Assembly (NCBI GenBank): GCA_004297165.1 | Contig: SCUJ01000006.1 | Location: 1,648,045 to 1,712,044 of the forward strand | Source of the DNA: Gammaproteobacteria bacterium | GTDB lineage: Bacteria > Pseudomonadota > Gammaproteobacteria > Eutrophobiales > Eutrophobiaceae | Reading direction: 5' to 3' | Length of the DNA: 64,000 nucleotides | Shown: one piece after another, positions 15,753-46,954 of the stretch | Layout: each line of letters starts with the position of its first letter | Numbering within the stretch: position 1 is the stretch's first letter | Notes under the pieces: generated by a model | Database searches by the model: none | What the model saw: only the letters and a program-made list of their open reading frames with translations | Told to the model about the DNA's origin: nothing | Program-made: the position numbers and the translations under genes

Positions 15753-15837
15753 TCACGCCCCCCATACGGACCAGAATTGGCCGGCTGTCGCAGTATAGGG
15801 ATGGCAGCCGGTGGGTTGAACAAGCGCCGGGGTGCGT

Positions 15838-16683: not shown

Positions 16684-16965
16684 TCCAAGTTCACGGGCGG
16701 CGGCCGAGAAACTGGCGAGCCTCGCGACCTGGATGAAGGCCTTGATGTTTTGCAGGGTGTTCAGGATCAGCTACCTCAAAACGAGAAAACTGTTTGCCAA
16801 TTTTGACACGTTCTCGCGCTACGGATACCTGTCTATTATTACACACCCGCTGAAGGGGTTTTGCGACAATGTTGTATTTCGGTCGCGGCATTAAGATCAA
16901 ATCGAGGACATTCCCTCGCGGGGGGATTAATTCCTGACAGGTATATCCAGCATAGGGGGTTTGGT

Positions 16966-19551
16966 ATGTATCACATGTCAACACACAGGGGCATTACGCG
17001 TATCCTGGCAGCAAGCCTCACGCTATCCGGCCTGATCCTTCCTTCCATGACCAGCGCTCAGGGCACGGTCGAGGAGATTGTGGTCACGGCCCAGTTTCGT
17101 GAAGAAAACATCCAGGATGTGCCGCTATCCATCTCGGCGTTATCGGGGGATTCCCTGGAGTCGAAAAACGCCACGAGCGTGCTGGATATCGAAAAGTGGA
17201 CGCCCAACTTGCAGATCGATCAGCTAGGGTCAGGATGGGGGCCAACCATGGCGGTCAATGCGCGCGGCATGGGCCTGAACGATTTCAAGGCGGTCTTTGA
17301 GCCAGCGGTGCCGATTTACGTGGACGATGTCCTGTTGGGCCGGCCCACGGCTGGCAATCTGGATCTCCTGGACCTCGAGCGCGTGGAGGTCCTGCGTGGA
17401 CCCCAGGGAACCCTGTTCGGCAGCAACGCGGCGGGTGGCGTGATCCGACTGATCACCCGCAAGCCCACCGGCGACGGTCCCACGGTACTCGAAGCTACCA
17501 TGGGCAGCTACAACACCTTCAACACCCGTGGCTCCTTCGAAACCGCCCTCGGCGAGAACCTCTTCGGCCGCTTTTCCTTCTCCACCAAACGCCGGGACGG
17601 TTATGTCGATGTCCTGGACTTCACCTGTGAGATGATCCGTCGCGGCACGCCGCAACTGGCGGGTATCGGTGACGGCCTGGGCGCGGATGGCCCCGATGCC
17701 GGAACGGCACCGGATGTGGTTGTAGCGGGCAGTCCCGAGGATAATGCCTTTGGCATCCCCATACAGACCTCGCCCAACGGCACCAACGAAGGTTGCAAGG
17801 TGGACGAGATGGGGGACGAAGGCATCATTTCCGGAAGAGTGCAGGTCCGCTGGGCAGTGAGTGACTCCCTGGAATTCAATCTGGCCGGCGACGTGATGGA
17901 CATGGATCAGAAGAGCCCGCAGGATCATGTCGCCGATACGGCGGACCAAGCGTCGAACGGCGGCTTTGGTCTGGTTAATAGCAGTAACAATCTGGTGAAC
18001 ATCCCGAATTTCGGAGTACGGTACGATGATCGATTCGCGCCAAGCGATCCTTTCGTCAACTATTCCTCCTTCGTGGATCCCGGGATCACATTTGGCATCC
18101 TCGACCAGGCCGGAAACGCCACCGGACAAAAGATGCGCTATCCGGGGGGAATTCTGACACCCAACACCATGCAGGCAAGGCACTGGGGCGTGAGTGGCGC
18201 CATGGACTGGGCCATCAACGAGACCCTGAACGCCAGGGTGATCCTGGCCTACAGGGAGTTCGATTCCTACTTCGGCCGGGATTCCGATGGTTCACCCATT
18301 CCCCTCAATCATACCGTCGATACCTATAACGATGAGCAGTTCACAGTCGAGGGGCGCCTCAGCGGCCAACTCGCATTGGGATACGGATCGAGCAGTTGGA
18401 CCACAGACTGGACGGCGGGTATATTCTGGTATGACGCCTCGGACTACAACTCCAATATCTCGCTCCTGCACATGGGCGTCATCGGCGCGGGAGACATCGA
18501 TCGCATCGACGACCAGACCAACCAGAAACTGGGGATCTTCCTCCACACCATCACGGAGTTGACGGATCAATGGACCCTGACTGCCGGAGTGCGTTATACA
18601 TCTGATGAGAAGGACATCCTGCAGACGCGCATCAAGCGGATCCTGGAGAACAGGGCCTATGTACCGGCTGACTACCTGTTCCTGCCAACACCCCTGTCCC
18701 AGGACGCGGAACGGGTGACGCCCATGGCCAGTCTCTCCTACCAGTGGAACGACGACATCATGACCTACTTCACCTACCAGCAGGGTTTCCGCGGGGGTGG
18801 CTTCAATCCCAGACCGGCGAACCTGCTTACCATCGGCACATTCAACCCCGAGGAAGTGGAGAATTTCGAACTGGGCATAAAAAGCGACTGGCTGGATCAA
18901 CGTCTGCGCGTAAACGCCAATCTGTTCTACATGGATTATACGGACCTGCAATTGCCGGCCGTGGTGCTTGATCCACTCTCGGGGGTTCCCACCTTCCCGA
19001 CCAAAAATGCGGGTGAGGCTGACATGCTGGGCATCGAGATGGATTTCGTGGCCTATCCGACCGAACACATCTCCATCGATGGCACCTTTGGCTGGTTAGG
19101 ATTTTCCTATGTGGATCTCGGCTCCGCCGATCCGGCGGTTATCGCCAGCTTCCCCGGCGGCGGCGGCACCGCCATCGCCAATCCCTGCCTGGACTGCAGG
19201 CCGCTGCGTTCACCCGAGATAAGCGCCTCGCTGGGGGCGGCCTTCACCACCCCGATTAGCGGCGGGGAATGGGGGAATCTCACCCTGCGCGGCGATGTCT
19301 CCTACCAGTCGGAAACCAACTTCACGGCGAACAACTTTACCCGGGCCAACCAGAGCGCTTATTCCGTGTTCAACGCCCGCGCGACCTGGGTCTCGCCGAC
19401 CGAGGACTGGGAGCTGTCGGTCAGCGGCGCCAACCTGACTGACAAACTCTACAAGACCAGCGTGCTGGATTTCATGGACTCCCTGGGCGGCATCCAGTAC
19501 GGCTATGGTCTGCCGCGGATGGTATTTGGCAGCATCAAGAAACGCTTCTAG
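16966..19551 (+). CDS. TonB-dependent outer-membrane receptor
   Basis: Signal peptide, TonB box/plug (TVEEIVVTAQF…), C-terminal beta-barrel ending …KKRF; RBS aggggg before ATG 16966. Confidence 0.85.
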   Translation: MYHMSTHRGITRILAASLTLSGLILPSMTSAQGTVEEIVVTAQFREENIQDVPLSISALSGDSLESKNATSVLDIEKWTPNLQIDQLGSGWGPTMAVNARGMGLNDFKAVFEPAVPIYVDDVLLGRPTAGNLDLLDLERVEVLRGPQGTLFGSNAAGGVIRLITRKPTGDGPTVLEATMGSYNTFNTRGSFETALGENLFGRFSFSTKRRDGYVDVLDFTCEMIRRGTPQLAGIGDGLGADGPDAGTAPDVVVAGSPEDNAFGIPIQTSPNGTNEGCKVDEMGDEGIISGRVQVRWAVSDSLEFNLAGDVMDMDQKSPQDHVADTADQASNGGFGLVNSSNNLVNIPNFGVRYDDRFAPSDPFVNYSSFVDPGITFGILDQAGNATGQKMRYPGGILTPNTMQARHWGVSGAMDWAINETLNARVILAYREFDSYFGRDSDGSPIPLNHTVDTYNDEQFTVEGRLSGQLALGYGSSSWTTDWTAGIFWYDASDYNSNISLLHMGVIGAGDIDRIDDQTNQKLGIFLHTITELTDQWTLTAGVRYTSDEKDILQTRIKRILENRAYVPADYLFLPTPLSQDAERVTPMASLSYQWNDDIMTYFTYQQGFRGGGFNPRPANLLTIGTFNPEEVENFELGIKSDWLDQRLRVNANLFYMDYTDLQLPAVVLDPLSGVPTFPTKNAGEADMLGIEMDFVAYPTEHISIDGTFGWLGFSYVDLGSADPAVIASFPGGGGTAIANPCLDCRPLRSPEISASLGAAFTTPISGGEWGNLTLRGDVSYQSETNFTANNFTRANQSAYSVFNARATWVSPTEDWELSVSGANLTDKLYKTSVLDFMDSLGGIQYGYGLPRMVFGSIKKRF

Positions 19552-19580
19552 ACTGACGTCTTCATTTGGGTTACTTGTGA

Positions 19581-19614
19581 ACCCCCTGATGCGAATCAGG
19601 GGGTTTTTCTTTTA
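19581..19614 (+). terminator. Rho-independent terminator after the TonB receptor gene
   Basis: accccctgatgcgaatcagggggt hairpin followed by tttttctttt. Confidence 0.7.
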
Positions 19615-19647
19615 TCCTAGTAATTCTCCAATTTGAGGTTGCTTGTC

Positions 19648-21003
19648 ATGCGATCAGGTAATGGTGAAACGATAAGGGAGCCGGAACGTTCCATCCCGGT
19701 TTACGGAAGCACTGAGGTCCTCGTGGTCGGCGGGGGACCGGCCGGAGTCTGTGCCGCGATCGCCGCGGCGAGGGCCGGGGCCGAGGTCACGTTGGTGGAA
19801 CGCTATGGCTGTTTAGGCGGGTTGTCCACCGGCGGTCTCGTCATCTGGATCGACCGGATGACCGACTGGGAAGGCCGGTTGGTGGTCGGCGGGATCGGCA
19901 AGGAGATCACGGATGCCTGTGCGGCGGAGAAGGCCCTCATCGGCCCGCCGCCCGAACAATGGGGCTCGAAGGACCCGAAGCTCGCTGCCTACTGGGGCGT
20001 GCGCACCGCGGGTCACCGCGGCATCGTTAATTTTTCCCCCACGATCGATCCGGAAGTGCTGAAGCTGATCCTGAACGACATGGTGCGGGCAGCGAAGGTC
20101 AACGTGTTACTGCACAGTTGGGCGGTCGCCACTCTCTGCCGGGAGAATAAGGTCACCGGCGTCATCTTCGAAAGCAAGGAAGGCCGTTTCGCGATAAAAG
20201 CGGACATCACCATCGACTGTTCGGGTGATGGCGATATCTTCGCCAAGGCCGGGGCTGTATTTGAAAACGATTTTGACGGCGTCTCTGCTCACGCCCGGCT
20301 GAACACCAGTTTTCGCTTCGGCAACGTGGATATGCGCCGCTACCTGGATTTCCGGATGATCCATCCGGAACAGTACAGTACGCTCATGCGGGAGGCCAGC
20401 CACGAGGACGAGTGGCTTACGAATACAGCCTTTGTCACGCCCAATGACACCATCGCCCTTTTCCTGACTCCCAAATTCAGCGGCTATTCGGCCCTCAAGG
20501 TCGACGACCTCACCGAGGTGGAATTTCGCTCGCGGGACGTCATGCGTCAGGTGCTCGCCTGGTACCGAACCAGGATGCCGGGTTTTGAGCGGGCCTGGAT
20601 CCACGATACGGCCTCGCAGGTCGGCACCCGGCACAGCCGGCGTCTGAGAGGGATCGAGTGCGTGAGCAGCAAGGTGTGGCGGACGGACGGTTCCAGCGTG
20701 AACAGTATCGGCCTGTGCCCCGGACTCTCGCCGGAGTTCCCGACACTCGAGATCCCATATGGTGTGCTCTTGCCGGAGCGTATCGACGGCGTGCTGGCGG
20801 CAGGCCGCAATCTATCCTGTGATACGACTTCCCATGCCGCCTTAAGGGAGATCCCGGAATGCTGGGTGATGGGTCATGCTGCTGGAGTCGGAGCGGCGCT
20901 TGCAGTACATTCGAAGCAGACAGTTCGATCCGTGCCAATTGTGGAAATACAAAGTGAACTCGAACGCCAAGGTGCTATCGTCAGGCGGCAGGAGAGGAAA
21001 TAA
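19648..21003 (+). CDS. FAD-dependent oxidoreductase (PF12831-like, GG-x-STGG type)
   Basis: VLVVGGGPAGVCAAIAAARAGAEVTLVE Rossmann FAD motif near N-terminus; start at ATG 19648. Confidence 0.8.
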   Translation: MRSGNGETIREPERSIPVYGSTEVLVVGGGPAGVCAAIAAARAGAEVTLVERYGCLGGLSTGGLVIWIDRMTDWEGRLVVGGIGKEITDACAAEKALIGPPPEQWGSKDPKLAAYWGVRTAGHRGIVNFSPTIDPEVLKLILNDMVRAAKVNVLLHSWAVATLCRENKVTGVIFESKEGRFAIKADITIDCSGDGDIFAKAGAVFENDFDGVSAHARLNTSFRFGNVDMRRYLDFRMIHPEQYSTLMREASHEDEWLTNTAFVTPNDTIALFLTPKFSGYSALKVDDLTEVEFRSRDVMRQVLAWYRTRMPGFERAWIHDTASQVGTRHSRRLRGIECVSSKVWRTDGSSVNSIGLCPGLSPEFPTLEIPYGVLLPERIDGVLAAGRNLSCDTTSHAALREIPECWVMGHAAGVGAALAVHSKQTVRSVPIVEIQSELERQGAIVRRQERK

Positions 21004-24935: not shown

Positions 24936-25147
24936 TGAAATTCCCCCCATGGATTGGATCCGTCTCAATCCGGCTTCACTGATAAGCCGAACCAAGATTC
25001 TTTATTACTTCTAGGAGGGATACTACAAAATCCAGTGCTCGGTTGTAAAGCGCTCTTAATTAAAGGGGTCGGAGTGGCGAATCTTGTATTCGCCATGGGA
25101 TAGAGGGCGATCACGAGGATCGCCTCTACGGTTCAGTTCGCGATGTA

Positions 25148-26776
25148 TCACCGCCATTCATCCACTGAAATTGTTTTCAAGTAGGTACCGCTCAGGATCT
25201 TCCACATGGCCCCGGTCTCGCCACCGACCACCACCACGCTGATATCCTCGGGTCGGAACATCTTGAGCGGCGTACCCGGTTCTGCCTTGAGAAAACTCGC
25301 ATACGGCTCGATCCCTGCGACCGCCTGCGGCAGTAGCAGGGTTTGTACCCACTGGTTATCCCAATATTCTCGTGCCGGGAGCAGACTGTTCTCCACGCAC
25401 CACTGGATAAGCTTCTGTTTAGTGTCAAAGCCCCTGTCGACAAAGCCTCTTGCAACCAGAGGGTCCAGCGCCAACACCGGACCGCTATAGGGGTCGCAGG
25501 CCGCGAGTGAACGGCGGAATTTTTCCTCCCAGGTCTCGCGGGGGCCTCCACCGAACTGGATATACCAGCCGCCCATGAACAGGCTCACGGCGCTATCTTC
25601 GGCCTTGTGTCCGTGTTGCACATGAAAGGGTTCCCAGGGGCTGCGTTCCTCGTTTTCCGCGAAGACCGCGCTGTAGGAATGCACGTTTCCCTGCGAGCCC
25701 ATGAAGCTCTCGCTTGGAACCGAGCCTCCCTGGAGATTCTGTGACAAGAGACCGTAGGCGCGGCCGATCGTAGCATTGGCGTGGTTGTAGGGCCCCATGG
25801 CCCCGATGCCGGAGTTCATGTTGATCTCGTTGCGCACCGGCCCGTTGACCATGGCAATCGTCGCCTGCGAGGTCGTACTGCTGGAACGCGCCGTGACGCA
25901 GGAGGCGGCCAGCGCCAGGATGACCGGAAAATATTCAGGCCGGGCCCCGGCCATGACCGCGTTCACGGCGACCTTTTCCACGGTGTATTCCCAGAGCTCG
26001 CGAAACCGGGCGGGTTGCAGGCGGCCCACCACTTTATCCGGGGCATGACTCGTGGCCTTGAGCATTGCCTCGACCCTGGCCTCGGTCGGCAGGACGATGG
26101 GCAGGAAATCCGTCCAGCGGTTCTCCTCGAAACGCTGATACAGGTTATCCTCCGTGTCGGGATCCAGCAGCCTTGGCGTGGAGCGATCGAAATCCATTCC
26201 CGCCTCATCCTCCTGCCGCAAAACGTCGGTGAGACCGTCGATCAGGCGTTTGATGAAGGGACCACCCTCGACCGCATCATCTCCTTCAATGTAGGCGCGC
26301 AGCTCCCCGGCGGATCGACCGACGACAGGTTGCGGTACAAAGGCCTGGCGCAGGGTGGGCAGGCCGTTGACCCTGGCGACGGAACGAACGAGCCGGGTGA
26401 AGACGTGGGTATGGACGGAGACCGTGGGTATGCCGTCCGCCTCCAATGCAATTGCTAGCCCGACGACCGTCGGGCTGCAAGAACTTCAAAGCCCCACGCC
26501 GAGGATAGCCGCATCACCCTCCGCCACGATTATTTCACGCATCGCCGGATCGTCGACCCAGCTTTCATGGGGTTTGATTGTCCGTACGATAACCCGCGGC
26601 AGGTGCTGTTCGAACCAGTCACGCAACTGATTCATGAACACCTCTGAATTGTCGAACAAACAATCCACAAGGTACAGGATCTTCCCGTCCAGGGCCTCGA
26701 GTCTGGGGGCAAGTCGTTTGCCAGAGACTTTCGGTGGATACCCTCTCGGGTCATGGACTCGAATTAATGAAGACAT
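25148..26776 (-). CDS. Putative selenoprotein, uncharacterised family (copy 2): single in-frame TGA at 26486-26488 read as selenocysteine in U-S-S-C motif; no signal peptide
   Basis: ORFs 26486..26776 and 25148..26446 are in the same frame separated by one TGA; downstream ORF begins with TTG; conserved peptide VGL-U-SSCSPTVVG; hairpin AGCCCGACG-GT-CGTCGGGCT 10 nt after UGA (+ coords 26457-26476). Confidence 0.6.
26457..26476 (-). ncRNA. Candidate bacterial SECIS-like hairpin downstream of the in-frame UGA of selenoprotein copy 2
   Basis: Perfect 9-bp inverted repeat containing GGTCGTCGGG core shared with copy 1. Confidence 0.45.
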
Positions 26777-27373: not shown

Positions 27374-27399
27374 AACGGCGGGTCGATTGACCCGCCGTT
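27374..27399 (-). terminator. Terminator hairpin after giant TonB receptor paralog B
   Basis: aacggcgggtc-gatt-gacccgccgtt; T-rich tract follows on minus strand; same stem as 21009-21036. Confidence 0.65.
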
Positions 27400-27425: not shown

Positions 27426-30400
27426 TTAGTACGAGACTTTCAACCCTACAAAGAAGCGGCGACCCAGGGTGTCGTAGTAACCACCATTAAAACCACCCTG
27501 TGTATACAGACTGCGTCCGTTCGGGTTTATACAACCAGGCGCTCCGCCACAGACCGCCTGCAGAGAGGCAGAGTCAGGATATTGCTCAGGTGTATAACCC
27601 GCTGTGCTGCCGACATTTTCCGGTTCTGTATCGAGCAGGTTAGTTATACCTGCTCGAAACGTAAACGTCTCGTTGTAATTCCAGTTGGCTGCCAAATCGA
27701 AGATATTGTAACTGTCAGTCTCTATTTCCGTAGTTGGCGTGTAACCCAGCAGTAGACCCGGTGTACCTGCCGAAACAGCAGTATTATTCTCGATGATGGC
27801 CATCTGGGAAGCGTAACCAGCAGTCCAAACCGACGGCAGATGACGCCAGCGCATCGTTACACTCCAGTTGTCCAGGTTATAACTAAGCGCACCGAATATG
27901 CGATAGTCATAGGCCCCGGCGTTGGTTCCGGGCAGAGTCGGGCCCAAGGAGCCGGTCCAATCTGTTTCCACATCGAAGGATGCGACTGATTGCTTCGTGA
28001 TATATTCGTTCAAGATCGTCGTCTGCAGATTGAAACCCAAGCCACCTGGCACATTAATGCCAAGATCCTGGAGCTGAGCCGACCAGTTGAACGCGATATC
28101 AAAACCAGAGGTATCAATCGTGGCCAAATTATCGTAGATCAGCGTGGAAGTAAGACCTGATCCATTGCGTTGGTCGCGGGGAAGGTTTTGACAGGCTGGA
28201 GTACTAGCCTGCGCTGCCGCTTCTGCTGGTGTACTCACGATCGTGCCAAAGCATTGAAAGTTGGCATAATCGACTGACCGCGTCATGATGGCATTATTGA
28301 TTTCCACCATGTACCAGTCGAACGACAGCGTGATGCCTGAAAGCCATGGATTCTCCAACGGCGAGCTAACAACAAACCCGGCTGTCCAGGTGTCCGCCTT
28401 TTCAGGACTCAGGGCAGTGTTCCCTTCCTGCAGTACCCAGGCGAAACCACCTCCAGCCGCAGCAACGGCATCAAGTCCTGAACGATAGAAATAGTCAGCG
28501 CCAGCAGTACCCATCAAAGCTTCACAAATCAATTGAGAGCTATTCGCGCCTGCCAGTGTTTGACCAGGCGCCAGCGTCGGAGCCGTTTCACTGGGATTCG
28601 TCACAATCGGGTCAGTCGCAAGAGATGTTCCGCCGGCACCGAAGGGAGAATTACTGCGGATAGCGCATGGGTCACCGAAGTTACCACCAGCGCCGAATAC
28701 TTCCTGCTTGTTCAGGAATAATTCACCCAGGTTGGGCGACCGAGTGGCCTTGTTGAAGCCACCACGCAGGCGCAACCAGTCTTGTGCCTCCCAGTTGCCC
28801 AGGATCTTCCAAGTCCATGCCGTGTCACCCGTCTCTTCATAATCCGAATAGCGGGCGCCAGTTTCTATTTCGAATTTCTGCATGTATGGCAGATCCGCCA
28901 CCACCGGTATTAATGCCTCGACATAGAAATCGTCGGCCGTTGTGGTTTCATCCAGATATCCGGTGGGATAGACGCCTACCACTTGATCGGTGAAGGAATC
29001 TTCCGACTGAAGGATATCAGGATTGAACTTGCCATTAACATTGCGGTGCTGGAACCCAATCGCGGATCGAAGTTCGCCGGCCGGGAGGTCATACACCCCG
29101 CCCTGGAGGTTCACTTCCACGATATCCTGGGCCATTTCCGTGCGGGTTTGCAGAGTGGCATTGATGGCATTGAAGCAGTCTTCCGACAGCGGTTGATCGC
29201 CCCCAAAGTACGTATCGTAGAAACCTGAAGTACATTCGAAATCACCGACACCGAAGGCCGGTCGGATCGAATTTACTGTTTCGACTCCATTTTCGGAAAC
29301 TACGGTGTAAGTCTGGTTACCAGTACCAACTGCGCCACGACCATAGTCAGGCAGATTGGTCAGGGCACGGTAACGACTCAATGACAGGTTACCGCCAGCG
29401 ACGTTATAGGTGCTGGATTCGCCGTGGGAGAAATAGACTTCACCAGTCCAGTCGCGGAATGGCAACTCGAAATCCACGCCGCCTTCAACCTGCCAAGTCT
29501 GGATAGTGTTGTAGGTGTTACGTGGCGGCAGGCTGGTATCGGGATTCCACTGCGGTTGCCAACGTGCAGCCGGGCCGGTATTAGCAACAGGGGTACCTGC
29601 CAAAGCCGGGTCGCGTGTCACTACTGTGAAATCACCCTGGAACGGCAGCGGGCAGGCAAAGGTGCCATACAGACAGTACGTATGTACGTTCCTGCTGTTC
29701 AGCAACATGGCAAGTTGCGCCGGTACGGGATGCCCTGCGCCGGGACTCCCGGTCGGGATGAAGCCCGGATTTGCGTACGCTGCGGGGTTGGCCGCGACAA
29801 GCTGCATCAGAGCGACATCATCATAATTGAGCGTCGGGTCGATCGGACTGTCTGTCGTTGGATTATAAGGAACACTTGTTTCCCAACCACTGATGGCATT
29901 GGTACCGAACAAAATAGTGCTAGTCTTGCTTTCCGCATAGTTCACTTTAGCAAATACCGAGACCGTATCTGTTACATCAAAGTGGCTCGATGCAAAGGCA
30001 GAATAACGGTCTTGTGGCGCACTGGCGTAAGCCTTGGTGTTATTCCATTTAATTCCATCCATGGTTCTCAAACCGGCCGCATCACTGTTATCCAGAGCGG
30101 TACGGTGGGCATATTGCAAGCCATCGAAAGTGCCTTTGAATTTGGACTGACCCAAAGGTGTCTGGAACGGGAACCCGGCTGTCCAAATGGTGCCATCCGC
30201 ATTGAACTGTATATCAACGTAGGTTGGCATTTCACCTGTAGCAGGGGCGAAACCAGCGAAGAACGCGCTGGGATTCTGGCCACCGAACAAGCCCCTTAGA
30301 GCCGCATTGGATGGGCAATTGGGGTCACAACTGTACGCATTTGTACCCTGGATGAAAATGAAGGAACCTGCTGTATCCGGATCGGCCCAGTAGTCCTTGT

Positions 30401-31127
30401 AAATATCCCTTTCTATCTGCATGGCCTCTTTCCTTTCATAGCGCTCGAGACCAAGAGTTACGTTGCCGCGATCATCAGCAAAATTCGCCCCGAACAAGGC
30501 GGAGATACGGCTTTCCTCGCCGTCTCCTGCCTCCGATATACCGTACTGGCCATCGAACTCGAAGCCCTCGTAATCCTTCCGCAGAATAAAGTTGGTCACG
30601 CCACCCACCGCATCAGCACCATACACAGACGAGGCGCCGCCGGTGATTGTTTCCACACGCTGTATAAGAGCTGAGGGGACGCCGTTGATATCGGTTACCA
30701 TCAGGGCGTTGACCGGGACCGGCCGCTTACCGTCAACCAGGGCCAAACTGCGGTTAGGGCCGAAGCCGCGCAATGAGATGGAGGCGATACCCACTGAATT
30801 CACTGGTGTGATCTGCACATCGCCTTGGGTGGTAACCGGCGAGGCGGCCGGATTGTATTCCGGCAACTGGTTCAGGTAGGACTCAACATTCAGCCCGGTC
30901 TGCTGTTCGAATGCCTCGGACTCGATGGTCACGATCGGGCTGTTCGACACGTAGTCGCGGCGGACGATACGGCTACCGGTAACCGTAACCTCCTCCAATT
31001 CGCCTCCTGCTTGATCCTGCGCCTGGGCACCGCTGCCCAGGGAAAACAACGATAACGCGGATATCAGCGCCGGGCGCGGCAATAACCGGCTCAGACGGAG
31101 TGTGCGAAAGTACAAAGACCTTATCAT
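27426..31127 (-). CDS. Giant TonB-dependent receptor (about 1230 aa), tandem paralog B
   Basis: Signal peptide (…GSGAQAQDQ), TonB box EEVTVTGSRIV, plug and barrel; C-terminus …VGLKVSY. Confidence 0.85.
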   Translation of the reverse strand: MIRSLYFRTLRLSRLLPRPALISALSLFSLGSGAQAQDQAGGELEEVTVTGSRIVRRDYVSNSPIVTIESEAFEQQTGLNVESYLNQLPEYNPAASPVTTQGDVQITPVNSVGIASISLRGFGPNRSLALVDGKRPVPVNALMVTDINGVPSALIQRVETITGGASSVYGADAVGGVTNFILRKDYEGFEFDGQYGISEAGDGEESRISALFGANFADDRGNVTLGLERYERKEAMQIERDIYKDYWADPDTAGSFIFIQGTNAYSCDPNCPSNAALRGLFGGQNPSAFFAGFAPATGEMPTYVDIQFNADGTIWTAGFPFQTPLGQSKFKGTFDGLQYAHRTALDNSDAAGLRTMDGIKWNNTKAYASAPQDRYSAFASSHFDVTDTVSVFAKVNYAESKTSTILFGTNAISGWETSVPYNPTTDSPIDPTLNYDDVALMQLVAANPAAYANPGFIPTGSPGAGHPVPAQLAMLLNSRNVHTYCLYGTFACPLPFQGDFTVVTRDPALAGTPVANTGPAARWQPQWNPDTSLPPRNTYNTIQTWQVEGGVDFELPFRDWTGEVYFSHGESSTYNVAGGNLSLSRYRALTNLPDYGRGAVGTGNQTYTVVSENGVETVNSIRPAFGVGDFECTSGFYDTYFGGDQPLSEDCFNAINATLQTRTEMAQDIVEVNLQGGVYDLPAGELRSAIGFQHRNVNGKFNPDILQSEDSFTDQVVGVYPTGYLDETTTADDFYVEALIPVVADLPYMQKFEIETGARYSDYEETGDTAWTWKILGNWEAQDWLRLRGGFNKATRSPNLGELFLNKQEVFGAGGNFGDPCAIRSNSPFGAGGTSLATDPIVTNPSETAPTLAPGQTLAGANSSQLICEALMGTAGADYFYRSGLDAVAAAGGGFAWVLQEGNTALSPEKADTWTAGFVVSSPLENPWLSGITLSFDWYMVEINNAIMTRSVDYANFQCFGTIVSTPAEAAAQASTPACQNLPRDQRNGSGLTSTLIYDNLATIDTSGFDIAFNWSAQLQDLGINVPGGLGFNLQTTILNEYITKQSVASFDVETDWTGSLGPTLPGTNAGAYDYRIFGALSYNLDNWSVTMRWRHLPSVWTAGYASQMAIIENNTAVSAGTPGLLLGYTPTTEIETDSYNIFDLAANWNYNETFTFRAGITNLLDTEPENVGSTAGYTPEQYPDSASLQAVCGGAPGCINPNGRSLYTQGGFNGGYYDTLGRRFFVGLKVSY

Positions 31128-31323
31128 CTTGTTATCCCCCATGGGTTTGTAGGCAATTCGTGCAGGCTTCGCGTGGAAGCCGGACAACTGTGTTGTAATA
31201 TTATCCCGTCGGATATTACGAAATCAAGCATGTTGATACAACGTGTCTTAAAAACAACACGACATAACACATTGTTACTAGCGATTGTTGCTCAACTTCG
31301 ACCAGTGTGCCACTTTGAGAACA

Positions 31324-32478
31324 TCACCACCATAAATCCTTGGTGGCAAGCTTCGCCCCCGCGACCAGCGCCTCGAATTTGGCCCACATGACCTGGGGAT
31401 GCACACGGGCGATGCGTTGTGCCTGGGCAAAGCCGCAGTCGGCGCCGGCAATGACATTTTCCCGGCCAACAATCCGGGCGAAACGTACAATTCGATCGGC
31501 GACCACCTGGGGGTGTTCAACCGTCGTCGTGTGATGGGTGATGACGCCGGGAATAAGGATTTTCCCCTCCGGCAGCCGTACTTTCTCCCAGACCCGCCAC
31601 TCATGTTCATGTCGGGGATTCGCGGCCTCGATCGAATAGGCCCCGGCCCTAACCTGCAGGATCAATCGCGCCATCTCCGAGAGCGGGGCGTCTGACACGT
31701 GCGGGACATGCCAACTGCCGAAGCAGATATGGTAGCGAATACGATCTTCAGGGATTCCGGACAAGGCGTGATTAAGAGCCTCCACACGCAATTCTGCCCA
31801 TTGCCGGTATTTGTCCGGGCTCTGTTGCACGAGATGATCGTACATATTGGCGAGTACGGCATCGTCCACCTGTACCAGCAGACCGGCGGCATGAATCTGA
31901 AGATATTCCTCCCGCAGGGCCTCGGCCAAGGCATGTATATATTCCCGCTCCGTGGCGTAATGCTCATTTACCCCGTTAAATGCGGCGCTGGCAGGCGCAA
32001 CCGTGGTGAGAAAGGCCTCCGTGACAATTACTTTGGTTAATGCCTTTTTGAATAACTCGATATTTGTGGCGATAGAGCGCTGGTCCACATAACGAATGGG
32101 TCCGGTGCAGGCATCGACGGGCAACCCTTCTACGCCCACGGGCATTTCGAGGGCGAAAAATTCTTTGAAGCGTTCCCGATCCCTGCCCAGCCAGTCGGCG
32201 GGGATCTTTTGTTGCGGCCGGTTTTCGAACCCGCTGATACGCTCCAGGATGTAATTGGCCCAACTGGATTTACCGAATTCACCATCGTTGACGATATCGA
32301 TGCCGATCTCGACCTGACGCTTGACCACATCGTCGATTGCCATCTGCATGGTGGACCGGTAATTCGCATCTTCCAGCGGCGGCTTGCCGGTGTATGCCTT
32401 GGTGAAAGAAACCAGGGATTCCGGCCGGATCAGGCTGCCGACATGAGTGGTGAGAATTCGATCTGTACTACGTTTCAT
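31324..32478 (-). CDS. Cobalamin-independent methionine synthase (MetE C-terminal/UROD-like) family Zn methyltransferase
   Basis: 384 aa; His-x-Cys (IRYHICFGSWH) and downstream Cys (GADCGFAQ) Zn-ligand pattern typical of MetE-like enzymes. Confidence 0.75.
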   Translation of the reverse strand: MKRSTDRILTTHVGSLIRPESLVSFTKAYTGKPPLEDANYRSTMQMAIDDVVKRQVEIGIDIVNDGEFGKSSWANYILERISGFENRPQQKIPADWLGRDRERFKEFFALEMPVGVEGLPVDACTGPIRYVDQRSIATNIELFKKALTKVIVTEAFLTTVAPASAAFNGVNEHYATEREYIHALAEALREEYLQIHAAGLLVQVDDAVLANMYDHLVQQSPDKYRQWAELRVEALNHALSGIPEDRIRYHICFGSWHVPHVSDAPLSEMARLILQVRAGAYSIEAANPRHEHEWRVWEKVRLPEGKILIPGVITHHTTTVEHPQVVADRIVRFARIVGRENVIAGADCGFAQAQRIARVHPQVMWAKFEALVAGAKLATKDLWW

Positions 32479-32503
32479 CTGAATTTATTTCCCTGGATAG
32501 CGG

Positions 32504-33613
32504 TTAACGAAAACTGTCGGCGACCTGTTTATGGACCTCCATGAGCTTAGGGATGGTATCCACCTGCCTGCGCCCCCAACCACACTCCGTAGCGATCCCG
32601 AATCCACCCTGATAATGACGGCGGAAGGACTCCAGGCGTTTCAACGTTCCCGGCACGCCGTCCGTGAGATGAACGAGGCCGATATAGAGTTTGGTGGACC
32701 CTACCGCCAGATCGCGCAACGGTTCGAAATAGGCATCGTCGCTGCGATTCCTCGGGACCGGCATGTGCACATAATCGAAGCGCCTTCCGGCATGTTTAAC
32801 CGCCAGATTCGCCATGCGCACCGCCACGCCCAGGTCTTTTGGTTCTATCAGATGGGAATGTTCCAGATCGCCGTAGCATAAATGCATGCCGAGCGTTACC
32901 TCGGAAGGAATCCCCGGCGACAACTCCGCGAGATAGGCGGCATAGCGCTCATAGGGATCGCCCTCTGCCTTCCAGGCGAGAGGTTCCCGGCCCAGATAAT
33001 CGCCGGTATCGCACGCGAAAACCTCCCAGCAGACATCCCACTGGATGGACAGATCCGTAGCCGGGATCGCGCGCAGCAGTATGGCGACCTCCCTTTTCAA
33101 GACGTCGACGATCGCCTGTGTCATGATCCTAAAATCCCGTTTGTCCCCCGTGCACCAGCGAGTGAAATCCTCGGGAAATGGGAAATTCACCTGATAGCGG
33201 GTATGCCGGGGGATGATGCCGGCATCCCGCAAATTGCGGAAAGTCGCATAACACTCGATGGCGAAATCGGCGTAATGAATGGTATCGAATTGAATCTTGT
33301 CGACGCTGTCCTTGACCTTGCAACGCCACATCTCTTCCCAACTCGTGGGGAGCCAGTCGGGGATATCCTTCTTGAAGACTGTTTTGTCGCGATTCGGTTT
33401 GGGTTTGTTGGTGATGATAATCCCGGGATTGGGTTCGTAGACATGCGGGGCATTAAACACCACCCACATGTTCCGATAGCCGGGTTCGCCGTGGGAGAGA
33501 CCGGCGAGTCGATCGCCCAGCGCCGGGGCGAGCAATCTGAAGGTGTCTTCCGCCGTGGCGCACGGCACGCTGCCCACCATTAAAACGGATCTATCCCGCA
33601 TATAATCATTCAT
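32504..33613 (-). CDS. Second MetE-like/UROD-like putative methyltransferase (paralogous fold)
   Basis: 369 aa; MHLCYGDLEH and ATECGWG motifs mirror the Zn-ligand pattern of the neighbour. Confidence 0.55.
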   Translation of the reverse strand: MNDYMRDRSVLMVGSVPCATAEDTFRLLAPALGDRLAGLSHGEPGYRNMWVVFNAPHVYEPNPGIIITNKPKPNRDKTVFKKDIPDWLPTSWEEMWRCKVKDSVDKIQFDTIHYADFAIECYATFRNLRDAGIIPRHTRYQVNFPFPEDFTRWCTGDKRDFRIMTQAIVDVLKREVAILLRAIPATDLSIQWDVCWEVFACDTGDYLGREPLAWKAEGDPYERYAAYLAELSPGIPSEVTLGMHLCYGDLEHSHLIEPKDLGVAVRMANLAVKHAGRRFDYVHMPVPRNRSDDAYFEPLRDLAVGSTKLYIGLVHLTDGVPGTLKRLESFRRHYQGGFGIATECGWGRRQVDTIPKLMEVHKQVADSFR

Positions 33614-33844
33614 GAACGATTCCTCATCTCAAAGCCGGAACGAAATCCGGCGTAAAGGGCTCGCCTCACCAGGCGGCCCTTCCAAAAGACCTCTACACCG
33701 ATTGCCGGTTTAACATGAAATACCTGGCCTGGCAACAATGCCTCCTTGGCCTTATTTGTGATGACAAAACCTCACTTATACTTGGTATATATTTAGTTGT
33801 ACCTTAACAATACCTTTACCACTCCAACTACAGGAGTTTCAGAG

Positions 33845-35239
33845 ATGAGCAAGAAGAGTCTGGAAGAGTTGTTAAAATCGTTCGGCAACCCGGTGCAGAT
33901 GCTGCGCAATTCCAAGACCGGCCCCAATGTCTACCCTGGCGTACCGCCGGAATTCACCAACTGGCGCGATGAACAGTCGGCCTGGCAGAAGACCTGCGTC
34001 CTCTTCAACCAGTCCTATCACATGGCCGATCTCGCGGTGGAAGGACCGGACGCGCTCAAACTGTTGAGCCATCTCGGGGTAAACACCTTCGCCAATTTCA
34101 GCATCGACAAGGCCAAGCAGTTTGTGCCGTGCAGTTATGACGGCCATATCATCGGCGATGTCATCCTCTTCTACCTTGCCGATAAGAAATTCAACCTGGT
34201 TGGGCGCATCCCCGTACTGAACTGGGTCATGTTCCATGCGGCAACCGGCGGGTATGACGTCAAGGTGGAACTGGACGAGCGCTCCGCCGCCCGGCCCGAC
34301 CCCTTCAACCGCAAGTCCTACCGCTTCCAGATCCAGGGCCCCAACGCCATGAAGACGATTGAAAAGGTCACCGGGAAGAAACCGCCGGAACTGAAATTCT
34401 TCAACATGTGCGGCATGAGCATCGCCGGAAAACAGGTCCGCGCCTTACGCCATGGCATGGCCGGGCAACCCGGATTCGAGCTGTTCGGTCCCTGGGCGGA
34501 TGGCGAGGCGGTGCGGGAGGCCCTGGTCAAGGCCGGCGAGGAATTCGGCCTGCGCCAGGTGGGCGGACGCGCCTATTCCTCCAACACCCTGGAATCCGGC
34601 TGGATCCCTTCTCCGCTTCCCGCCATCTATTCAGGCGCGAAAATGAAACCCTACCGGGAATGGCTCACGGAAGACAGCTACGAGGCCAGGGCCTCGATCG
34701 GCGGCAGTTTCAACTCGGCGAAAATCGAGGATTATTATCTGACACCCTGGGACGTGGGATACGGGCCGTTCGTGAAGTTCGACCACGAGTTCATCGGCCG
34801 GGAGGCGCTCGAACAGATGGCGAAACACCCGCTGCGAACCAAGGTCACGCTGGCGCTAGACAGCGCGGATGTCACCCGCGCCATCAGCAGCCAACTGGAC
34901 AAGGGCGACCGGGCGAAATTCATCGAGTTTCCCTCCGCCGTGTATTCCATGCATCCCTATGACAAGGTCACGGTCAAGGGCAAGACCGTCGGCGTTTCCA
35001 CCTGGATCGGCTACAGTTCCAACGAGCGCAGGATGCTGACGCTCGCCATCCTCGATAATGAATACGCCAAGCCCGGCACGGATGTGACCCTGGTGTGGGG
35101 CGAGGAAGGCGGCGGCACCGCGAAGCCCACCGTGGAGCCGCATGTCCAGACCGAGATCAGGGCGACAGTCAGCCCGGTGCCTTATTCGGAGGTCGCGCGG
35201 AAGGAGTATGCTGAGGGTTGGCGCACAGGGAAATTCTAA
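33845..35239 (+). CDS. Aminomethyltransferase (GcvT) family protein, tetrahydrofolate-dependent demethylase-like (LigM/DmdA-type)
   Basis: 464 aa, RBS aggag; GcvT-family architecture and size closer to LigM-type aryl-O-demethylases than to GcvT. Confidence 0.75.
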   Translation: MSKKSLEELLKSFGNPVQMLRNSKTGPNVYPGVPPEFTNWRDEQSAWQKTCVLFNQSYHMADLAVEGPDALKLLSHLGVNTFANFSIDKAKQFVPCSYDGHIIGDVILFYLADKKFNLVGRIPVLNWVMFHAATGGYDVKVELDERSAARPDPFNRKSYRFQIQGPNAMKTIEKVTGKKPPELKFFNMCGMSIAGKQVRALRHGMAGQPGFELFGPWADGEAVREALVKAGEEFGLRQVGGRAYSSNTLESGWIPSPLPAIYSGAKMKPYREWLTEDSYEARASIGGSFNSAKIEDYYLTPWDVGYGPFVKFDHEFIGREALEQMAKHPLRTKVTLALDSADVTRAISSQLDKGDRAKFIEFPSAVYSMHPYDKVTVKGKTVGVSTWIGYSSNERRMLTLAILDNEYAKPGTDVTLVWGEEGGGTAKPTVEPHVQTEIRATVSPVPYSEVARKEYAEGWRTGKF

Positions 35240-35401: not shown

Positions 35402-36103
35402 CTATCCCGTAAGCCATTCTTGCAGGGCGCGGGAAACTTCTTCCGGCCTCTCCATCGTCACCATATGCCCGGCGTGCTCGATGATGACCAGGTCCGAGTT
35501 CCTGATCTCAGCGGCCATGGCCGCATGCTGCTCCGGCGGCGACCATTCATCCTCCCGACCGCATAATAACAATGTAGGACAGGCGATCATGCGCGGCACT
35601 ATCGTGGCATCCGGACGTTGCAGCAGCGCGTGGATCTGGCCTTCGAATTCCGCAACGGTGGTGCGGGTGATCATCCGTTCGATCGCATCGAGCAACTTCC
35701 GGTCATTCCGGCGATCCGGATGCACCATGGTTGGGATCCAGGCCGCTGCGACCGCTGGCATGCCCTGCCTGGCGGCGATATCCAGGTAGACCTGCCTTTT
35801 GGCCGGTTCCCCAGCCCCGGCTGGGTGTACGCCGGTATCCAGCAATGCGAGCCGCGTGACGCGCTCGGGCGCCAGGCGATAAACCTCCAGCGCCACCCGT
35901 CCGCCCATGGAATGTCCCGCCACGGCGAATTGCGTCGGCGCCAGCGCCAATGACTTCCGCGCCATCTCCACCAGGGAATCGAGGCCGCGAAATTCCGGCA
36001 CGATGATGTCCGCGATATCCCTCAGTGAATCGATCTGGCGCCGCCAGACATCGGCATCGCACATGAGGCCGGGCAAGAGCAATAACGGGATCTTTTTGGG
36101 CAT
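35402..36103 (-). CDS. Alpha/beta hydrolase fold protein
   Basis: GHSMGG nucleophile elbow, catalytic His near C-terminus. Confidence 0.8.
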   Translation of the reverse strand: MPKKIPLLLLPGLMCDADVWRRQIDSLRDIADIIVPEFRGLDSLVEMARKSLALAPTQFAVAGHSMGGRVALEVYRLAPERVTRLALLDTGVHPAGAGEPAKRQVYLDIAARQGMPAVAAAWIPTMVHPDRRNDRKLLDAIERMITRTTVAEFEGQIHALLQRPDATIVPRMIACPTLLLCGREDEWSPPEQHAAMAAEIRNSDLVIIEHAGHMVTMERPEEVSRALQEWLTG

Positions 36104-40710: not shown

Positions 40711-40861
40711 TGTGTCAGTATCAAGGGGAATCTGTGACCTGCAAGCGGTTGGATATCAGGCCGGTGCGAAAAGTATACCGTGCGCCTGTCCGTACTCACA
40801 CCGTCTTTTCATGTACGTTACGCAGGGCTACCATGTCCGGAATGCCTTCCTGCGCCAACCC

Positions 40862-42343: not shown

Positions 42344-42351
42344 CTCATCGG

Positions 42352-45093: not shown

Positions 45094-45171
45094 TGTGCAA
45101 GATGGCTGTGATTTGGGGCAATCGAGTATACTCGAACCTCGTTTTCAATGAACCTGTAAGGAGCCTTTGCG

Positions 45172-46937: not shown

Positions 46938-46954
46938 TAAAATCAGCGCCCATC

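What the first reader, a model, noticed from the sequence alone, without database searches (positions are those of the whole stretch)
31324..35239. Demethylase module: LigM/DmdA-like THF aminomethyltransferase divergent from two MetE-like Zn methyltransferases
A GcvT-family protein of LigM size (THF-dependent methyl-group remover) is divergently transcribed from two adjacent paralogous MetE-like/UROD-fold proteins that carry His-x-Cys … Cys zinc-ligand patterns. One plausible coupling is that methyl groups moved onto THF by the demethylase are then passed to a thiol acceptor by the MetE-like enzymes, regenerating THF. Alternatively the MetE-like proteins could themselves be O/S-methyl transferases acting on a methoxylated or methylated-sulfur substrate.
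Basis: partly seen in the sequence, partly recalled or inferred. Interest (0 to 1): 0.6.

Follow-up and report, generated by a model that had tools for sequence, protein, structure and literature searches.

The report
Syringate demethylase beside two MetE-like enzymes
A known type of lignin-aromatic demethylase gene sits back-to-back with two uncharacterised zinc enzymes built like the catalytic half of methionine synthase, a pairing that recurs in several uncultured soil bacteria and may show a new way of handling the methyl groups stripped from plant aromatics.

Summary
Three genes lie at the stated coordinates.

- **C (33845-35239, +)** is a DesA-type, tetrahydrofolate (THF)-dependent syringate O-demethylase. 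It passes the NCBIfam DesA equivalog cut-off and is far from GcvT and DmdA.
- **A (31324-32478, -)** is a single-barrel MetE homologue. It keeps all four zinc ligands and all three homocysteine-binding residues. It lacks the N-terminal barrel and the glutamate that anchors the pterin ring.
- **B (32504-33613, -)** matches no Pfam, NCBIfam or PDB sequence. A confident model folds like the MetE catalytic barrel, and His-x-Cys...Cys is invariant.

A and B are not recent paralogues; only profile and fold comparison link them.

The arrangement esterase <- DesA | B -> A -> UGSC selenoprotein recurs in at least five other metagenomic contigs. Two more contigs keep B next to DesA alone.

Best reading, unproven: this is a cluster for breaking down a methoxylated aromatic acid, and B and A pass aromatic-derived methyl groups to a thiol. 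The donor would be DesA's 5-methyl-THF or the methoxy group itself. Sequence cannot decide between them.

This is a new variant of a known kind, of moderate interest.

The parts
33845..35239 (+). Gene C: DesA-type THF-dependent syringate O-demethylase, 464 aa. The ORF as listed starts at the TTG at 33797.
   Evidence: NCBIfam NF047633 SyrngDmethDesA scores 873.4 bits (cut-off 800). The LigM model scores 646.8 (cut-off 580). GcvT and DmdA models fall far below their cut-offs. Pfam GCV_T E 2.9e-39. Solved LigM 5tl4 scores 542 bits over residues 5-461, and the Tyr of 'GRAYSSN' aligns with the Tyr of LigM 'SRAYPSN'. AGGAG lies 8 nt before the ATG at 33845.
33614..33844 (.). 231-bp divergent intergenic region between B and DesA; presumed promoter and regulatory region.
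   Evidence: Sequence. Weak sigma-70-like matches on both strands, not above the shuffled expectation. Relatives L084, L117 and L118 carry an AraC-family gene between DesA and B (L084 also a TonB-dependent receptor gene); the window has no detectable homologue of the L118 AraC gene.
32504..33613 (-). Gene B: 369-aa member of an uncharacterised family with no Pfam model; MetE-type (beta/alpha)8 barrel with a predicted zinc site.
   Evidence: No Pfam, NCBIfam or PDB sequence hit. 1618 homologues, those named all called 'hypothetical'; 3629 50%-identity clusters. Invariant G42-E43, Q191-x-D193, E197, H244-x-C246, H315, E343-C344. AF2 pLDDT 92.4, pTM 0.91. Foldseek top 11 PDB hits are all MetE or B12-independent methionine synthase, E 5e-8 to 2e-6. 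hhalign against the A family puts the motifs in register.
31324..32478 (-). Gene A: 384-aa single-barrel MetE homologue ('cobalamin-independent methionine synthase II family'), 25 bp downstream of B.
   Evidence: Pfam Meth_synt_2 E 9e-17. Every NCBIfam methionine-synthase model scores far below cut-off; the best is 98 bits against 576. S15, E67, D205, H250, C252, E284 and C348 are invariant. The alignment places five of them (E67, D205, H250, C252, C348) on the T. maritima counterparts of E. coli MetE E484, D599, H641, C643, C726; S15 and E284 are matched by motif (residue list from PMC7857596). N211 stands where T. maritima MetE has the pterin-binding Glu583.
35402..36103 (-). Alpha/beta-hydrolase (carboxylesterase-like), conserved partner of DesA.
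   Evidence: Pfam Abhydrolase_1 and Abhydrolase_6. Best PDB relative is esterase 4uhc, E 1.6e-27. Found next to the DesA gene at 65-81% identity in L084, L087, L088, L117 and L118.
27426..31187 (-). Large TonB-dependent receptor directly downstream of A; probably the last gene of the B-A transcription unit in this window.
   Evidence: Plug and TonB_dep_Rec_b-barrel domains. It is followed by the hairpin at 27374-27399. It is absent from this position in relatives, where A is followed directly by the UGSC gene.
27374..27399 (-). Terminator-like hairpin (11-bp stem, 8 G-C pairs) followed by a T-rich tail.
   Evidence: The overall count of terminator-like sites is not above the shuffles, so this is suggestive only.
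25148..26776 (-). UGSC-family selenoprotein fused to a ~370-aa domain of unknown function, 542 aa if TGA 26486-26488 is read as selenocysteine (motif U-S-S-C).
   Evidence: One frame with a single in-frame TGA. Pfam UGSC and NCBIfam NF041046 hits. The same TGA occurs in all related loci, and database homologues are called from just after it at 413-435 aa. It lies directly after A in L084, L087, L117 and L118, and beside A in L086.
26457..26476 (-). Candidate bacterial SECIS (selenocysteine-insertion) hairpin AGCCCGAC-GGTC-GTCGGGCT, starting 9 nt after the TGA.
   Evidence: Conserved in six other sequences; the window's second UGSC gene has a related but distinct hairpin. One compensatory change is seen (C:G to U:A in L085 and L087). 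No Rfam family matched.
14067..21003 (.). IlvD/Edd-family dehydratase (14067-15752, -), TonB-dependent receptor (16861-19551, +) and FAD_oxidored PF12831 protein (19633-21003, +). These are orthologues of genes that directly follow the UGSC gene in relative L118.
   Evidence: Pfam. Identity to the L118 genes is 66%, 88% and 82% (L118 gene order).

Best explanation
This is a conserved gene cluster of uncultured soil and aquifer Gammaproteobacteria for breaking down a syringate-type methoxylated aromatic acid.

Proposed steps:
1. The substrate enters through TonB-dependent receptors.
2. A carboxylesterase-like hydrolase and the DesA-type enzyme act on it. DesA transfers one O-methyl group to tetrahydrofolate, giving 3-O-methylgallate and 5-methyl-THF.
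3. The divergent operon encodes two single-barrel MetE-superfamily zinc enzymes, B and A. Each activates a thiol on zinc; by its binding residues this is a homocysteine-like amino-acid thiol. Each transfers an aromatic-derived methyl group onto that thiol.
4. My preferred version is that the donor is DesA's 5-methyl-THF, so that THF is released for further turnover. The direct donor (the remaining methoxy group of 3-O-methylgallate) is nearly as likely.
5. The UGSC selenoprotein is probably a redox or thiol/selenol helper for this step.

Shown here: the identity of DesA, the MetE fold with conserved zinc and substrate residues in A and B, and the conserved linkage.

Inferred: all catalytic activities, the methyl donor, the thiol acceptor, and any A-B complex.
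For: - DesA identity.
- A keeps the seven functional residues of methionine synthases.
- B keeps the Glu and Asp that bind the amino group, His-x-Cys...Cys, and a His/Gln at the position of the fourth ligand. It has a MetE-barrel fold.
- Both keep a His in the position of the MetE 'DIHSP' histidine, a candidate general acid.
- Synteny: esterase-DesA | B-A-UGSC occurs in the window, L084/85, L087, L088 (partial), L117 and L118. B and DesA lie co-directionally without A in L005 and L006. A more distant B + A + DesA-like trio occurs in L058.
- B and A lie within about 6 kb of each other in L027, L086, L121 and L122.
- The annotated stretches of L084, L117 and L118 (about 18-21 kb each) list no MTHFR, FolD or PurU domain, so no other outlet for 5-methyl-THF is encoded locally.
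- Precedent for two separately encoded MetE barrels forming a complex: split MetE (PMC7857596). Folate binds in the cleft between the two barrels (PMC539065).
Against: - No activity has been measured.
- Characterised single-barrel MetE relatives (MesA-D) do not use methyl-THF (PMC7857596).
- A has Asn at the pterin-anchoring Glu583 position and lacks the DMV motif.
- B is not a Meth_synt_1 (N-terminal barrel) homologue.
- A orthologues at 65-70% identity, and most B relatives, lie far from any GcvT-family gene. They sit with VOC/glyoxalase, DUF6152, TauD and oxygenase genes. Their chemistry therefore cannot depend on a neighbouring THF demethylase.
- A catabolic methyl flux onto homocysteine would need a way to recycle the product, and none is visible here.
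Confidence: 0.4

Rival explanations
1. B and/or A are folate- and corrinoid-independent, ether-cleaving methyltransferases. A zinc-bound thiolate (or the selenolate of the UGSC protein) attacks the methyl carbon of an aryl methyl ether such as 3-O-methylgallate. A conserved histidine protonates the leaving phenolate. DesA removes the first methoxy group and B/A the second. This is the direct-donor option inside the best explanation, scored here on its own.
For: - Syringate has two methoxy groups, and the cluster has only one THF demethylase.
- The B family sits among ring-hydroxylating and ring-cleaving enzymes: FAD ring hydroxylase, Rieske oxygenase, BphC-type dioxygenase, Amidohydro_2.
- B occurs fused to a catechol 1,2-dioxygenase-like domain, a flavin reductase and a GST.
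- A lacks folate determinants.
- Single-barrel relatives use non-folate donors.
Against: - No zinc-thiolate enzyme is known to demethylate aryl methyl ethers without a corrinoid. No paper in the library links MetE-like proteins to O-demethylation.
- The fusions are single sequences and could be gene-calling artefacts.
- The fate of the methylated thiol is unexplained.
Confidence: 0.2
2. B and A use their zinc-thiolate site for a different alkylation in aromatic catabolism, as in epoxyalkane:CoM transferase. A thiol would be added to an epoxide, quinone or quinone-methide intermediate. The UGSC selenoprotein would later remove the thiol reductively, by analogy with beta-etherase followed by a glutathione lyase. 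DesA would be only a pathway neighbour.
For: - Recurrent partners of A and B are VOC/glyoxalase-fold proteins with weak FosA- or FosB-like thiol-transferase matches, GSTs, TauD-family dioxygenases and SnoaL-like proteins.
- The UxxC selenoprotein is co-operonic.
- The MetE superfamily is known to contain an epoxide-opening thiol transferase (my own knowledge, not tested here).
Against: - A's retention of the full homocysteine-binding triad points to a methionine-synthase-like substrate.
- No epoxide-forming monooxygenase is conserved in the cluster.
- The UGSC fusion also occurs without A or B.
Confidence: 0.2
3. The linkage has no shared chemistry. A is a biosynthetic 'core' methionine synthase with an unknown donor, B is an unrelated catabolic enzyme, and both merely share a regulon or a genomic island with DesA.
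For: - A has a complete methionine-synthase residue set.
- The A family is very large and highly conserved: 8000 hits (the search's scoring limit), with the top 120 at 65% identity or more.
- Gene order around the core is fluid: receptor genes are inserted, and the AraC gene is present or absent.
Against: - B-DesA adjacency is kept across different gene orders and at 59-91% B identity. That is hard to get by chance for a gene present about once per genome.
- A is flanked by receptor and regulator genes typical of catabolic islands, not by methionine-biosynthesis genes.
Confidence: 0.15

Closest known systems
DesA / LigM, THF-dependent aryl O-demethylases of Sphingobium sp. SYK-6 and Novosphingobium aromaticivorans (GcvT fold)
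   Same: Gene C passes the DesA equivalog model. It aligns end to end with solved LigM (542 bits) and keeps the tyrosine that I recall as catalytic in LigM. Same size and domain make-up.
   Different: The host is an uncultured gammaproteobacterium, not a sphingomonad. From memory, ligM in SYK-6 lies next to metF and ligH, which process 5-methyl-THF. No such domains are listed in the related contigs; here the neighbours are an esterase and two MetE-like genes. Substrate range is untested.
MetE, cobalamin-independent methionine synthase (E. coli, T. maritima)
   Same: A and B share the catalytic (beta/alpha)8 barrel. They share the His-x-Cys...Cys zinc motif and the Glu and Asp that bind the amino group of homocysteine. 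A also has the Ser and the Glu zinc ligand.
   Different: - Both are single barrels of about 370-385 aa with no Meth_synt_1 barrel.
- A has Asn at the pterin-anchoring Glu583 position and no DMV motif.
- B has His/Gln instead of the Glu zinc ligand.
- Both score far below every MetE model cut-off.
Core (folate-independent) methionine synthases MesA-MesD and split MetE (Price et al. 2021, PMC7857596)
   Same: Single-barrel architecture with conserved zinc and homocysteine residues, and an unknown or non-folate methyl donor. Two adjacent barrel genes recall split MetE.
   Different: - A matches the NCBIfam 'methionine synthase' single-barrel models only weakly (39-98 bits against cut-offs of 258-576), and MesD structure 3rpd at only 27 bits.
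- No DUF1852 (MesX) or corrinoid-protein gene is nearby.
- Unlike split MetE, both partners keep a metal site, and B is not a Meth_synt_1 protein.
UGSC-containing selenoprotein family, including the 'UGSC/Unknown_1 fusion' (Zhang & Gladyshev 2008, PMC2398784)
   Same: In-frame TGA in a UxxC motif, a hairpin downstream, and fusion to a conserved domain of unknown function.
   Different: The family's function is unknown. A link to MetE-like genes and DesA was not mentioned in the passages I read, and no paper found in the library describes it. The motif here is U-S-S-C or U-S-T-C rather than U-G-S-C.

Membership tests
DesA/LigM THF-dependent aryl O-demethylase | GcvT-type folate-binding domain | tested here: met
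   PF01571 E 2.9e-39, residues 33-254.
DesA/LigM THF-dependent aryl O-demethylase | Score above the curated equivalog cut-off, and clearly separated from GcvT and DmdA | tested here: met
   DesA model 873.4 bits (cut-off 800). LigM model 646.8 (cut-off 580). GcvT models 30-84 (cut-offs 236-459). DmdA 54 (cut-off 410).
DesA/LigM THF-dependent aryl O-demethylase | Full-length LigM architecture and the active-site tyrosine (LigM Tyr247; residue role from memory) | tested here: met
   Aligned over 5-461 with 5tl4. The Tyr of 'GRAYSSN' is opposite the Tyr of 'SRAYPSN'.
DesA/LigM THF-dependent aryl O-demethylase | THF-dependent demethylation of syringate to 3-O-methylgallate | not testable with these tools
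   Needs an enzyme assay.
MetE (EC 2.1.1.14) | Two face-to-face barrels (Meth_synt_1 + Meth_synt_2, about 750 aa) | tested here: not met
   A is 384 aa with Meth_synt_2 only. B is 369 aa with no Pfam hit.
MetE (EC 2.1.1.14) | Zinc ligands His-Cys-Glu-Cys | tested here: met
   A: H250, C252, E284, C348 are invariant. B: H244, C246, C344 are invariant, but H283 (His or Gln) replaces the Glu. The feature is fully met for A and three of four for B.
MetE (EC 2.1.1.14) | Homocysteine-binding Ser, Glu and Asp (E. coli S433, E484, D599) | tested here: met
   A: S15, E67, D205 are invariant. B: E43 and D193 are invariant; position 15 is Ser, Gly or Ala.
MetE (EC 2.1.1.14) | Pterin-binding Glu583 and the DMV motif (T. 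maritima numbering) | tested here: not met
   A has N211 opposite Glu583 and 'SWA' opposite DMV. For B the alignment is too uncertain to say; an invariant E197 lies two residues away in the motif.
MetE (EC 2.1.1.14) | Score above the curated model cut-offs | tested here: not met
   A scores 43-50 bits against cut-offs of 541-930. B has no hit.
Core methionine synthases MesA-MesD | Single catalytic barrel with conserved zinc and homocysteine residues | tested here: met
   for A. Partly met for B.
Core methionine synthases MesA-MesD | Sequence membership in one of the four families, and the partner gene (MesX/DUF1852 or a corrinoid protein) | tested here: not met
   All single-barrel 'methionine synthase' models score far below cut-off. 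MesD structure 3rpd scores only 27 bits. No DUF1852 or corrinoid-protein gene is listed in the annotated genes around A or B or among the window ORFs scanned. The mapping of NCBIfam models to Mes families is my assumption.
UGSC selenoprotein family | In-frame UGA in a UxxC motif with a downstream SECIS hairpin | tested here: met
   TGA at 26486-26488 in L-U-S-S-C. The hairpin is conserved, with one compensatory pair change in relatives.
UGSC selenoprotein family | Score above the curated model cut-off | tested here: inconclusive
   Pfam PF24696 scores 33.5 bits on the post-TGA fragment (cut-off 25). NCBIfam NF041046 scores 64.6, below its cut-off of 125. Selenocysteine incorporation itself is not testable here, and no sel genes or tRNA-Sec are in the window.

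The most novel reading that the evidence does not exclude
B and A, possibly as a heteromeric face-to-face double barrel and helped by the UGSC selenoprotein, form a previously unknown aerobic route. It would move methyl groups of lignin-derived methoxy-aromatics onto a thiol or selenol. One version frees THF from DesA's 5-methyl-THF without MetF, FolD or PurU. The other cleaves the aryl methyl ether directly, without folate, corrinoid or oxygen. The Pfam-less B family (about 3600 50%-identity clusters) would then be a new class of catabolic zinc alkyltransferases.
Probability: 0.2. Interest if true: 0.8.

Novelty: new variant of a known kind. Interest (0 to 1): 0.55.

Why it matters
Removing O-methyl groups is a rate-limiting step in turning lignin aromatics into useful products. 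The THF-dependent route stalls unless 5-methyl-THF is recycled. If B/A regenerate THF, or demethylate directly using a thiol, they would give a compact, oxygen-independent module for engineering. They would also assign a function to two large families that are currently labelled 'hypothetical' (B) or given methionine-synthase names on family resemblance alone (A), and give a first physiological context to the abundant UGSC selenoprotein. If instead the link is only co-regulation, the finding is an ordinary DesA locus with two unexplained neighbours.

Tried and rejected
- **PDB sequence searches for B.** B alone and as a profile gave nothing. Only fold comparison worked.
- **A universal partner for the B family.** I clustered 977 ORFs around 79 B loci. 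No neighbour family occurs in more than 9 loci, so there is no family-wide partner.
- **DmtS as a possible MetE-like demethylase.** Rejected: it is VanA-like (PMC8091115).
- **DesC/DesD as an analogue of the esterase.** The paper gave no family information.
- **AlphaFold model of the UGSC C-terminal domain.** pLDDT was 51.8, too poor for a fold search. A PDB profile search found nothing.
- **Rfam and tRNA scans of the window.** Nothing found.
- **Literature searches** linking MetE-like proteins with O-demethylation or syringate. Nothing found.
- **NCBIfam on the recurrent partners of A** (VOC proteins, DUF6152, a 250-aa protein). Uninformative.
- **Contexts in cultured genomes** (Nocardia, Catalimonadaceae). 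Uninformative.
- **The DMSP/DmdA reading.** Rejected on model scores.
- **Recent paralogy of A and B.** Rejected.

Full report
**1. Observation**

The window carries three ORFs exactly where stated: A at 31324-32478 (-), B at 32504-33613 (-) and C at 33797-35239 (+).

C most likely starts at the ATG at 33845, giving 464 aa.
- An AGGAG lies 8 nt upstream.
- Homologues are 464-465 aa.
- The DesA model begins at residue 5 of this version.

B and A are 25 bp apart on the minus strand. B and C are divergent across 231 bp.

**2. Gene C is a DesA-type O-demethylase**

C has the GCV_T folate-binding domain (E 2.9e-39). NCBIfam scores are:

| Model | Bits | Cut-off |
|---|---|---|
| Syringate O-demethylase DesA (equivalog) | 873.4 | 800 |
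| Vanillate/3-O-methylgallate O-demethylase LigM | 646.8 | 580 |
| GcvT (three models) | 30-84 | 236-459 |
| DmdA | 54 | 410 |

Solved LigM (5tl4/5x1i) aligns over residues 5-461 at 542 bits. The tyrosine I recall as catalytic in LigM (Tyr247) is conserved.

A DMSP/DmdA reading can be dropped.

**3. Gene A is a single-barrel MetE homologue with an intact active site**

A matches Pfam Meth_synt_2 (E 9e-17). It matches PDB MetE catalytic domains and the YxjG-like protein 1ypx. Every curated methionine-synthase model scores far below its cut-off.

In 17 family members, S15, E67, D205, H250, C252, E284 and C348 are invariant. The alignment to T. maritima MetE places five of them on the counterparts of E. 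coli E484, D599, H641, C643 and C726; S15 and E284 are matched by motif to S433 and E665. These are the substrate- and zinc-binding residues listed by Price et al. (PMC7857596).

A has no N-terminal barrel. It has Asn211 where T. maritima MetE has Glu583, which clamps the pterin, and 'SWA' in place of the invariant DMV motif.

A histidine (H316) aligns with the His of the MetE 'DIHSP' motif, a proposed general acid.

**4. Gene B belongs to a large, unnamed family with a MetE fold**

B has no Pfam, NCBIfam or PDB sequence match, even as a 25-sequence profile.

It has 1618 homologues, and those that carry a name are all called 'hypothetical'. They come from Steroidobacteraceae, other Gammaproteobacteria, Binatia, Acidobacteriota, Rokubacteria, Nocardia and others. 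An exhaustive profile search finds 3629 50%-identity clusters.

The AlphaFold model is confident (pLDDT 92.4, pTM 0.91). Its eleven best PDB matches are all MetE or B12-independent methionine synthases (E 5e-8 to 2e-6, TM 0.57-0.66). The next hits are generic TIM barrels at E of 8e-4 or weaker.

Invariant residues include G42-E43, Q191-x-D193, E197, H244-x-C246, H315 and E343-C344.

Profile-profile alignment with the A family (E 0.0044, 301 columns) puts these motifs in register:

| B | A |
|---|---|
| VGS | VGS |
| DGE | DGE |
| QWD | QVDD |
| HxC | HxC |
| ECG | DCG |

B's His283 (Gln in some members) lies opposite A's zinc ligand Glu284.

So the zinc-ligand pattern survives careful alignment. 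However, A and B are not paralogues in any recent sense, since BLASTP finds nothing significant.

**5. Conserved gene neighbourhood**

The arrangement below recurs with B at 78-91% identity:

esterase <- DesA <- (AraC) | B -> A -> UGSC/Sec fusion

- It is found in L084/L085, L087, L088 (truncated), L117 (Gammaproteobacteria bacterium RIFCSPLOWO2_02_FULL_56_15) and L118.
- L118 continues with an IlvD/Edd dehydratase, a PF12831 flavoprotein, an MFS transporter and a TonB-dependent receptor. The orthologues of the dehydratase, flavoprotein and receptor lie at 14-21 kb in the window.
- In the window a large receptor gene and a small secreted-protein gene are inserted between A and the UGSC gene, and no homologue of the L118 AraC gene is detected.

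At 59-63% B identity, L005 and L006 keep B followed by DesA on the same strand, without A or UGSC. A distant locus, L058, has B (39%), A (43%) and a DesA-like gene (46%) within 20 kb.

At 64-69% B identity, B and an A orthologue lie within about 6 kb in L027, L086, L121 and L122. There they are accompanied by IclR regulators, TonB-dependent receptors, VOC/glyoxalase proteins, DUF6152 or TauD-family dioxygenases, and no DesA.

Summary of the linkage:
- B and A are recurrent partners.
- DesA plus its esterase is a frequent but not obligatory third party.
- The B-DesA link persists through rearrangement, which argues for function rather than chance.

Family-wide picture:
- Across 79 loci, B has no universal neighbour.
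- Its neighbours are mostly catabolic oxidoreductases: FAD ring hydroxylase, Rieske oxygenase, BphC-type dioxygenase, luciferase-like monooxygenase, Amidohydro_2, GMC oxidoreductase and CoA-transferase.
- Single sequences fuse the B domain to a catechol-1,2-dioxygenase-like domain, a flavin reductase, a GST or an ornithine-cyclodeaminase-family domain.
- A orthologues elsewhere sit with further Meth_synt_2 paralogues, VOC proteins, DUF6152 and receptors.

**6. The third operon member is a selenoprotein**

Downstream, 26776-25148 (-) is one reading frame broken by a single TGA (26486-26488) in the motif L-U-S-S-C. It matches the UGSC (seleno)protein family.

The TGA and a hairpin starting 9 nt after it (AGCCCGAC-GGTC-GTCGGGCT) are conserved in all related loci. 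One compensatory change, C:G to U:A, is seen.

The homology search reached its 8000-candidate limit; the 120 homologues listed are called from after the TGA at 404-444 aa, mostly 435. One relative lies beside selA and selB.

This corresponds to the 'UGSC/Unknown_1 fusion' noted in ocean metagenomes, whose function is unknown (PMC2398784).

The fusion also occurs away from A and B. It is therefore a helper recruited to this operon, not an exclusive partner.

**7. Mechanism**

What is shown:
- a bona fide DesA-type enzyme;
- two MetE-barrel proteins whose conserved residues are those that bind zinc and an amino-acid thiol;
- conserved linkage among them.

What follows from established knowledge: DesA converts syringate and THF to 3-O-methylgallate and 5-methyl-THF. 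MetE-superfamily zinc sites activate thiols for alkyl transfer.

I therefore commit to this reading: B and A are thiol S-methyl (or S-alkyl) transferases serving methoxy-aromatic catabolism. Confidence is about 0.4 for the methyl-to-thiol idea as a whole.

Within it I slightly prefer 5-methyl-THF as donor.
- The B-DesA minimal pair fits this.
- No MTHFR, FolD or PurU domain is listed in the annotated stretches of L084, L117 and L118.
- Split MetE shows that two separately encoded barrels can form a folate cleft.

The counter-evidence is real.
- Known single-barrel relatives do not use methyl-THF.
- A lacks the pterin-binding residues.
- Most A and B relatives have no THF demethylase nearby.

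Direct, folate-independent demethylation of the second methoxy group is nearly as plausible. Non-methyl thiol chemistry, of the epoxide or quinone-adduct type, is nearly as plausible too. Mere co-location remains possible.

**8. Comparison and novelty**

Gene C is a new member of a known family.

A is an uncharacterised branch of the 'methionine synthase II' family. It is neither MetE nor, as far as the curated models show, MesA-D.

B is a family with no Pfam model and no literature that I could find.

No paper found in the library describes the link of DesA with MetE-like genes and a UGSC selenoprotein.

Overall this is a new variant of a known kind. It is interesting mainly because it makes a concrete, testable proposal for how methyl groups from lignin aromatics are handled.

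Noticed in passing
window 25148-26776 (-); TGA at 26486-26488; hairpin 26457-26476: UGSC-family selenoprotein fused to a ~370-aa unknown domain. It is read through one in-frame TGA (U-S-S-C) followed by a conserved SECIS-like hairpin.
   Followed up: partly
window about 6564-8264 (+); TGA at 6909-6911: A second, divergent UGSC-fusion gene (30-45% identity to the first; motif H-U-S-T-C). It has its own TGA and hairpin and an apparent N-terminal signal peptide. It is followed by an Amidohydro_2 gene (8222-9142), an RPE65/lignostilbene-dioxygenase-like gene (9248-10714) and a GST (10558-11415). This looks like a second aromatic-catabolic cluster with a selenoprotein.
   Followed up: partly
window 21063-24995 (-) and 27426-31187 (-): Two unusually long TonB-dependent receptors (ORFs of 1310 and 1253 aa; start codons uncertain). 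The plug domain is normal but the barrel is very extended. They are inserted into a cluster that lacks them in relatives.
   Followed up: no
window 26798-27310 (-): A 170-aa ORF with a signal-peptide-like N-terminus and no family match, lying between the receptor and the UGSC gene. It is absent from the related loci.
   Followed up: no
P0505, P0375, P0437, P0393, P0494, P0361 (B-family representatives): The B domain occurs fused to a catechol-1,2-dioxygenase-like domain, a flavin reductase, a GST, an ornithine-cyclodeaminase-family domain and a weak SAM-methyltransferase-like region. P0361 (712 aa) matches the B profile in two stretches and has no Pfam hit. Their genomic context could not be looked up.
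   Followed up: partly
L111-L114, L027, L119: A pair made of DUF6152 and an unnamed ~242-250-aa protein recurs next to A orthologues (L111-L114, L027), next to a B homologue (L027) and next to a UGSC fusion (L119; L115/L116 show a cut DUF6152 only). This hints at a wider uncharacterised gene network.
   Followed up: no
window 40712-48175 and 42352-42939: Glycolate-oxidase-like genes (a FAD-linked oxidase at 40712-42343; FAD_binding_4 and CCG iron-sulfur genes at 45879-48175) and a glutathione-dependent formaldehyde-activating (GFA) family gene. They lie a few kb from the DesA cluster. No link was tested.
   Followed up: no
window 51414-52283 (+), 54146-54973 (-); GC dip at 54-56 kb: Two PEP-CTERM proteins and a local drop in G+C to 0.49, against about 0.60 elsewhere.
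   Followed up: no
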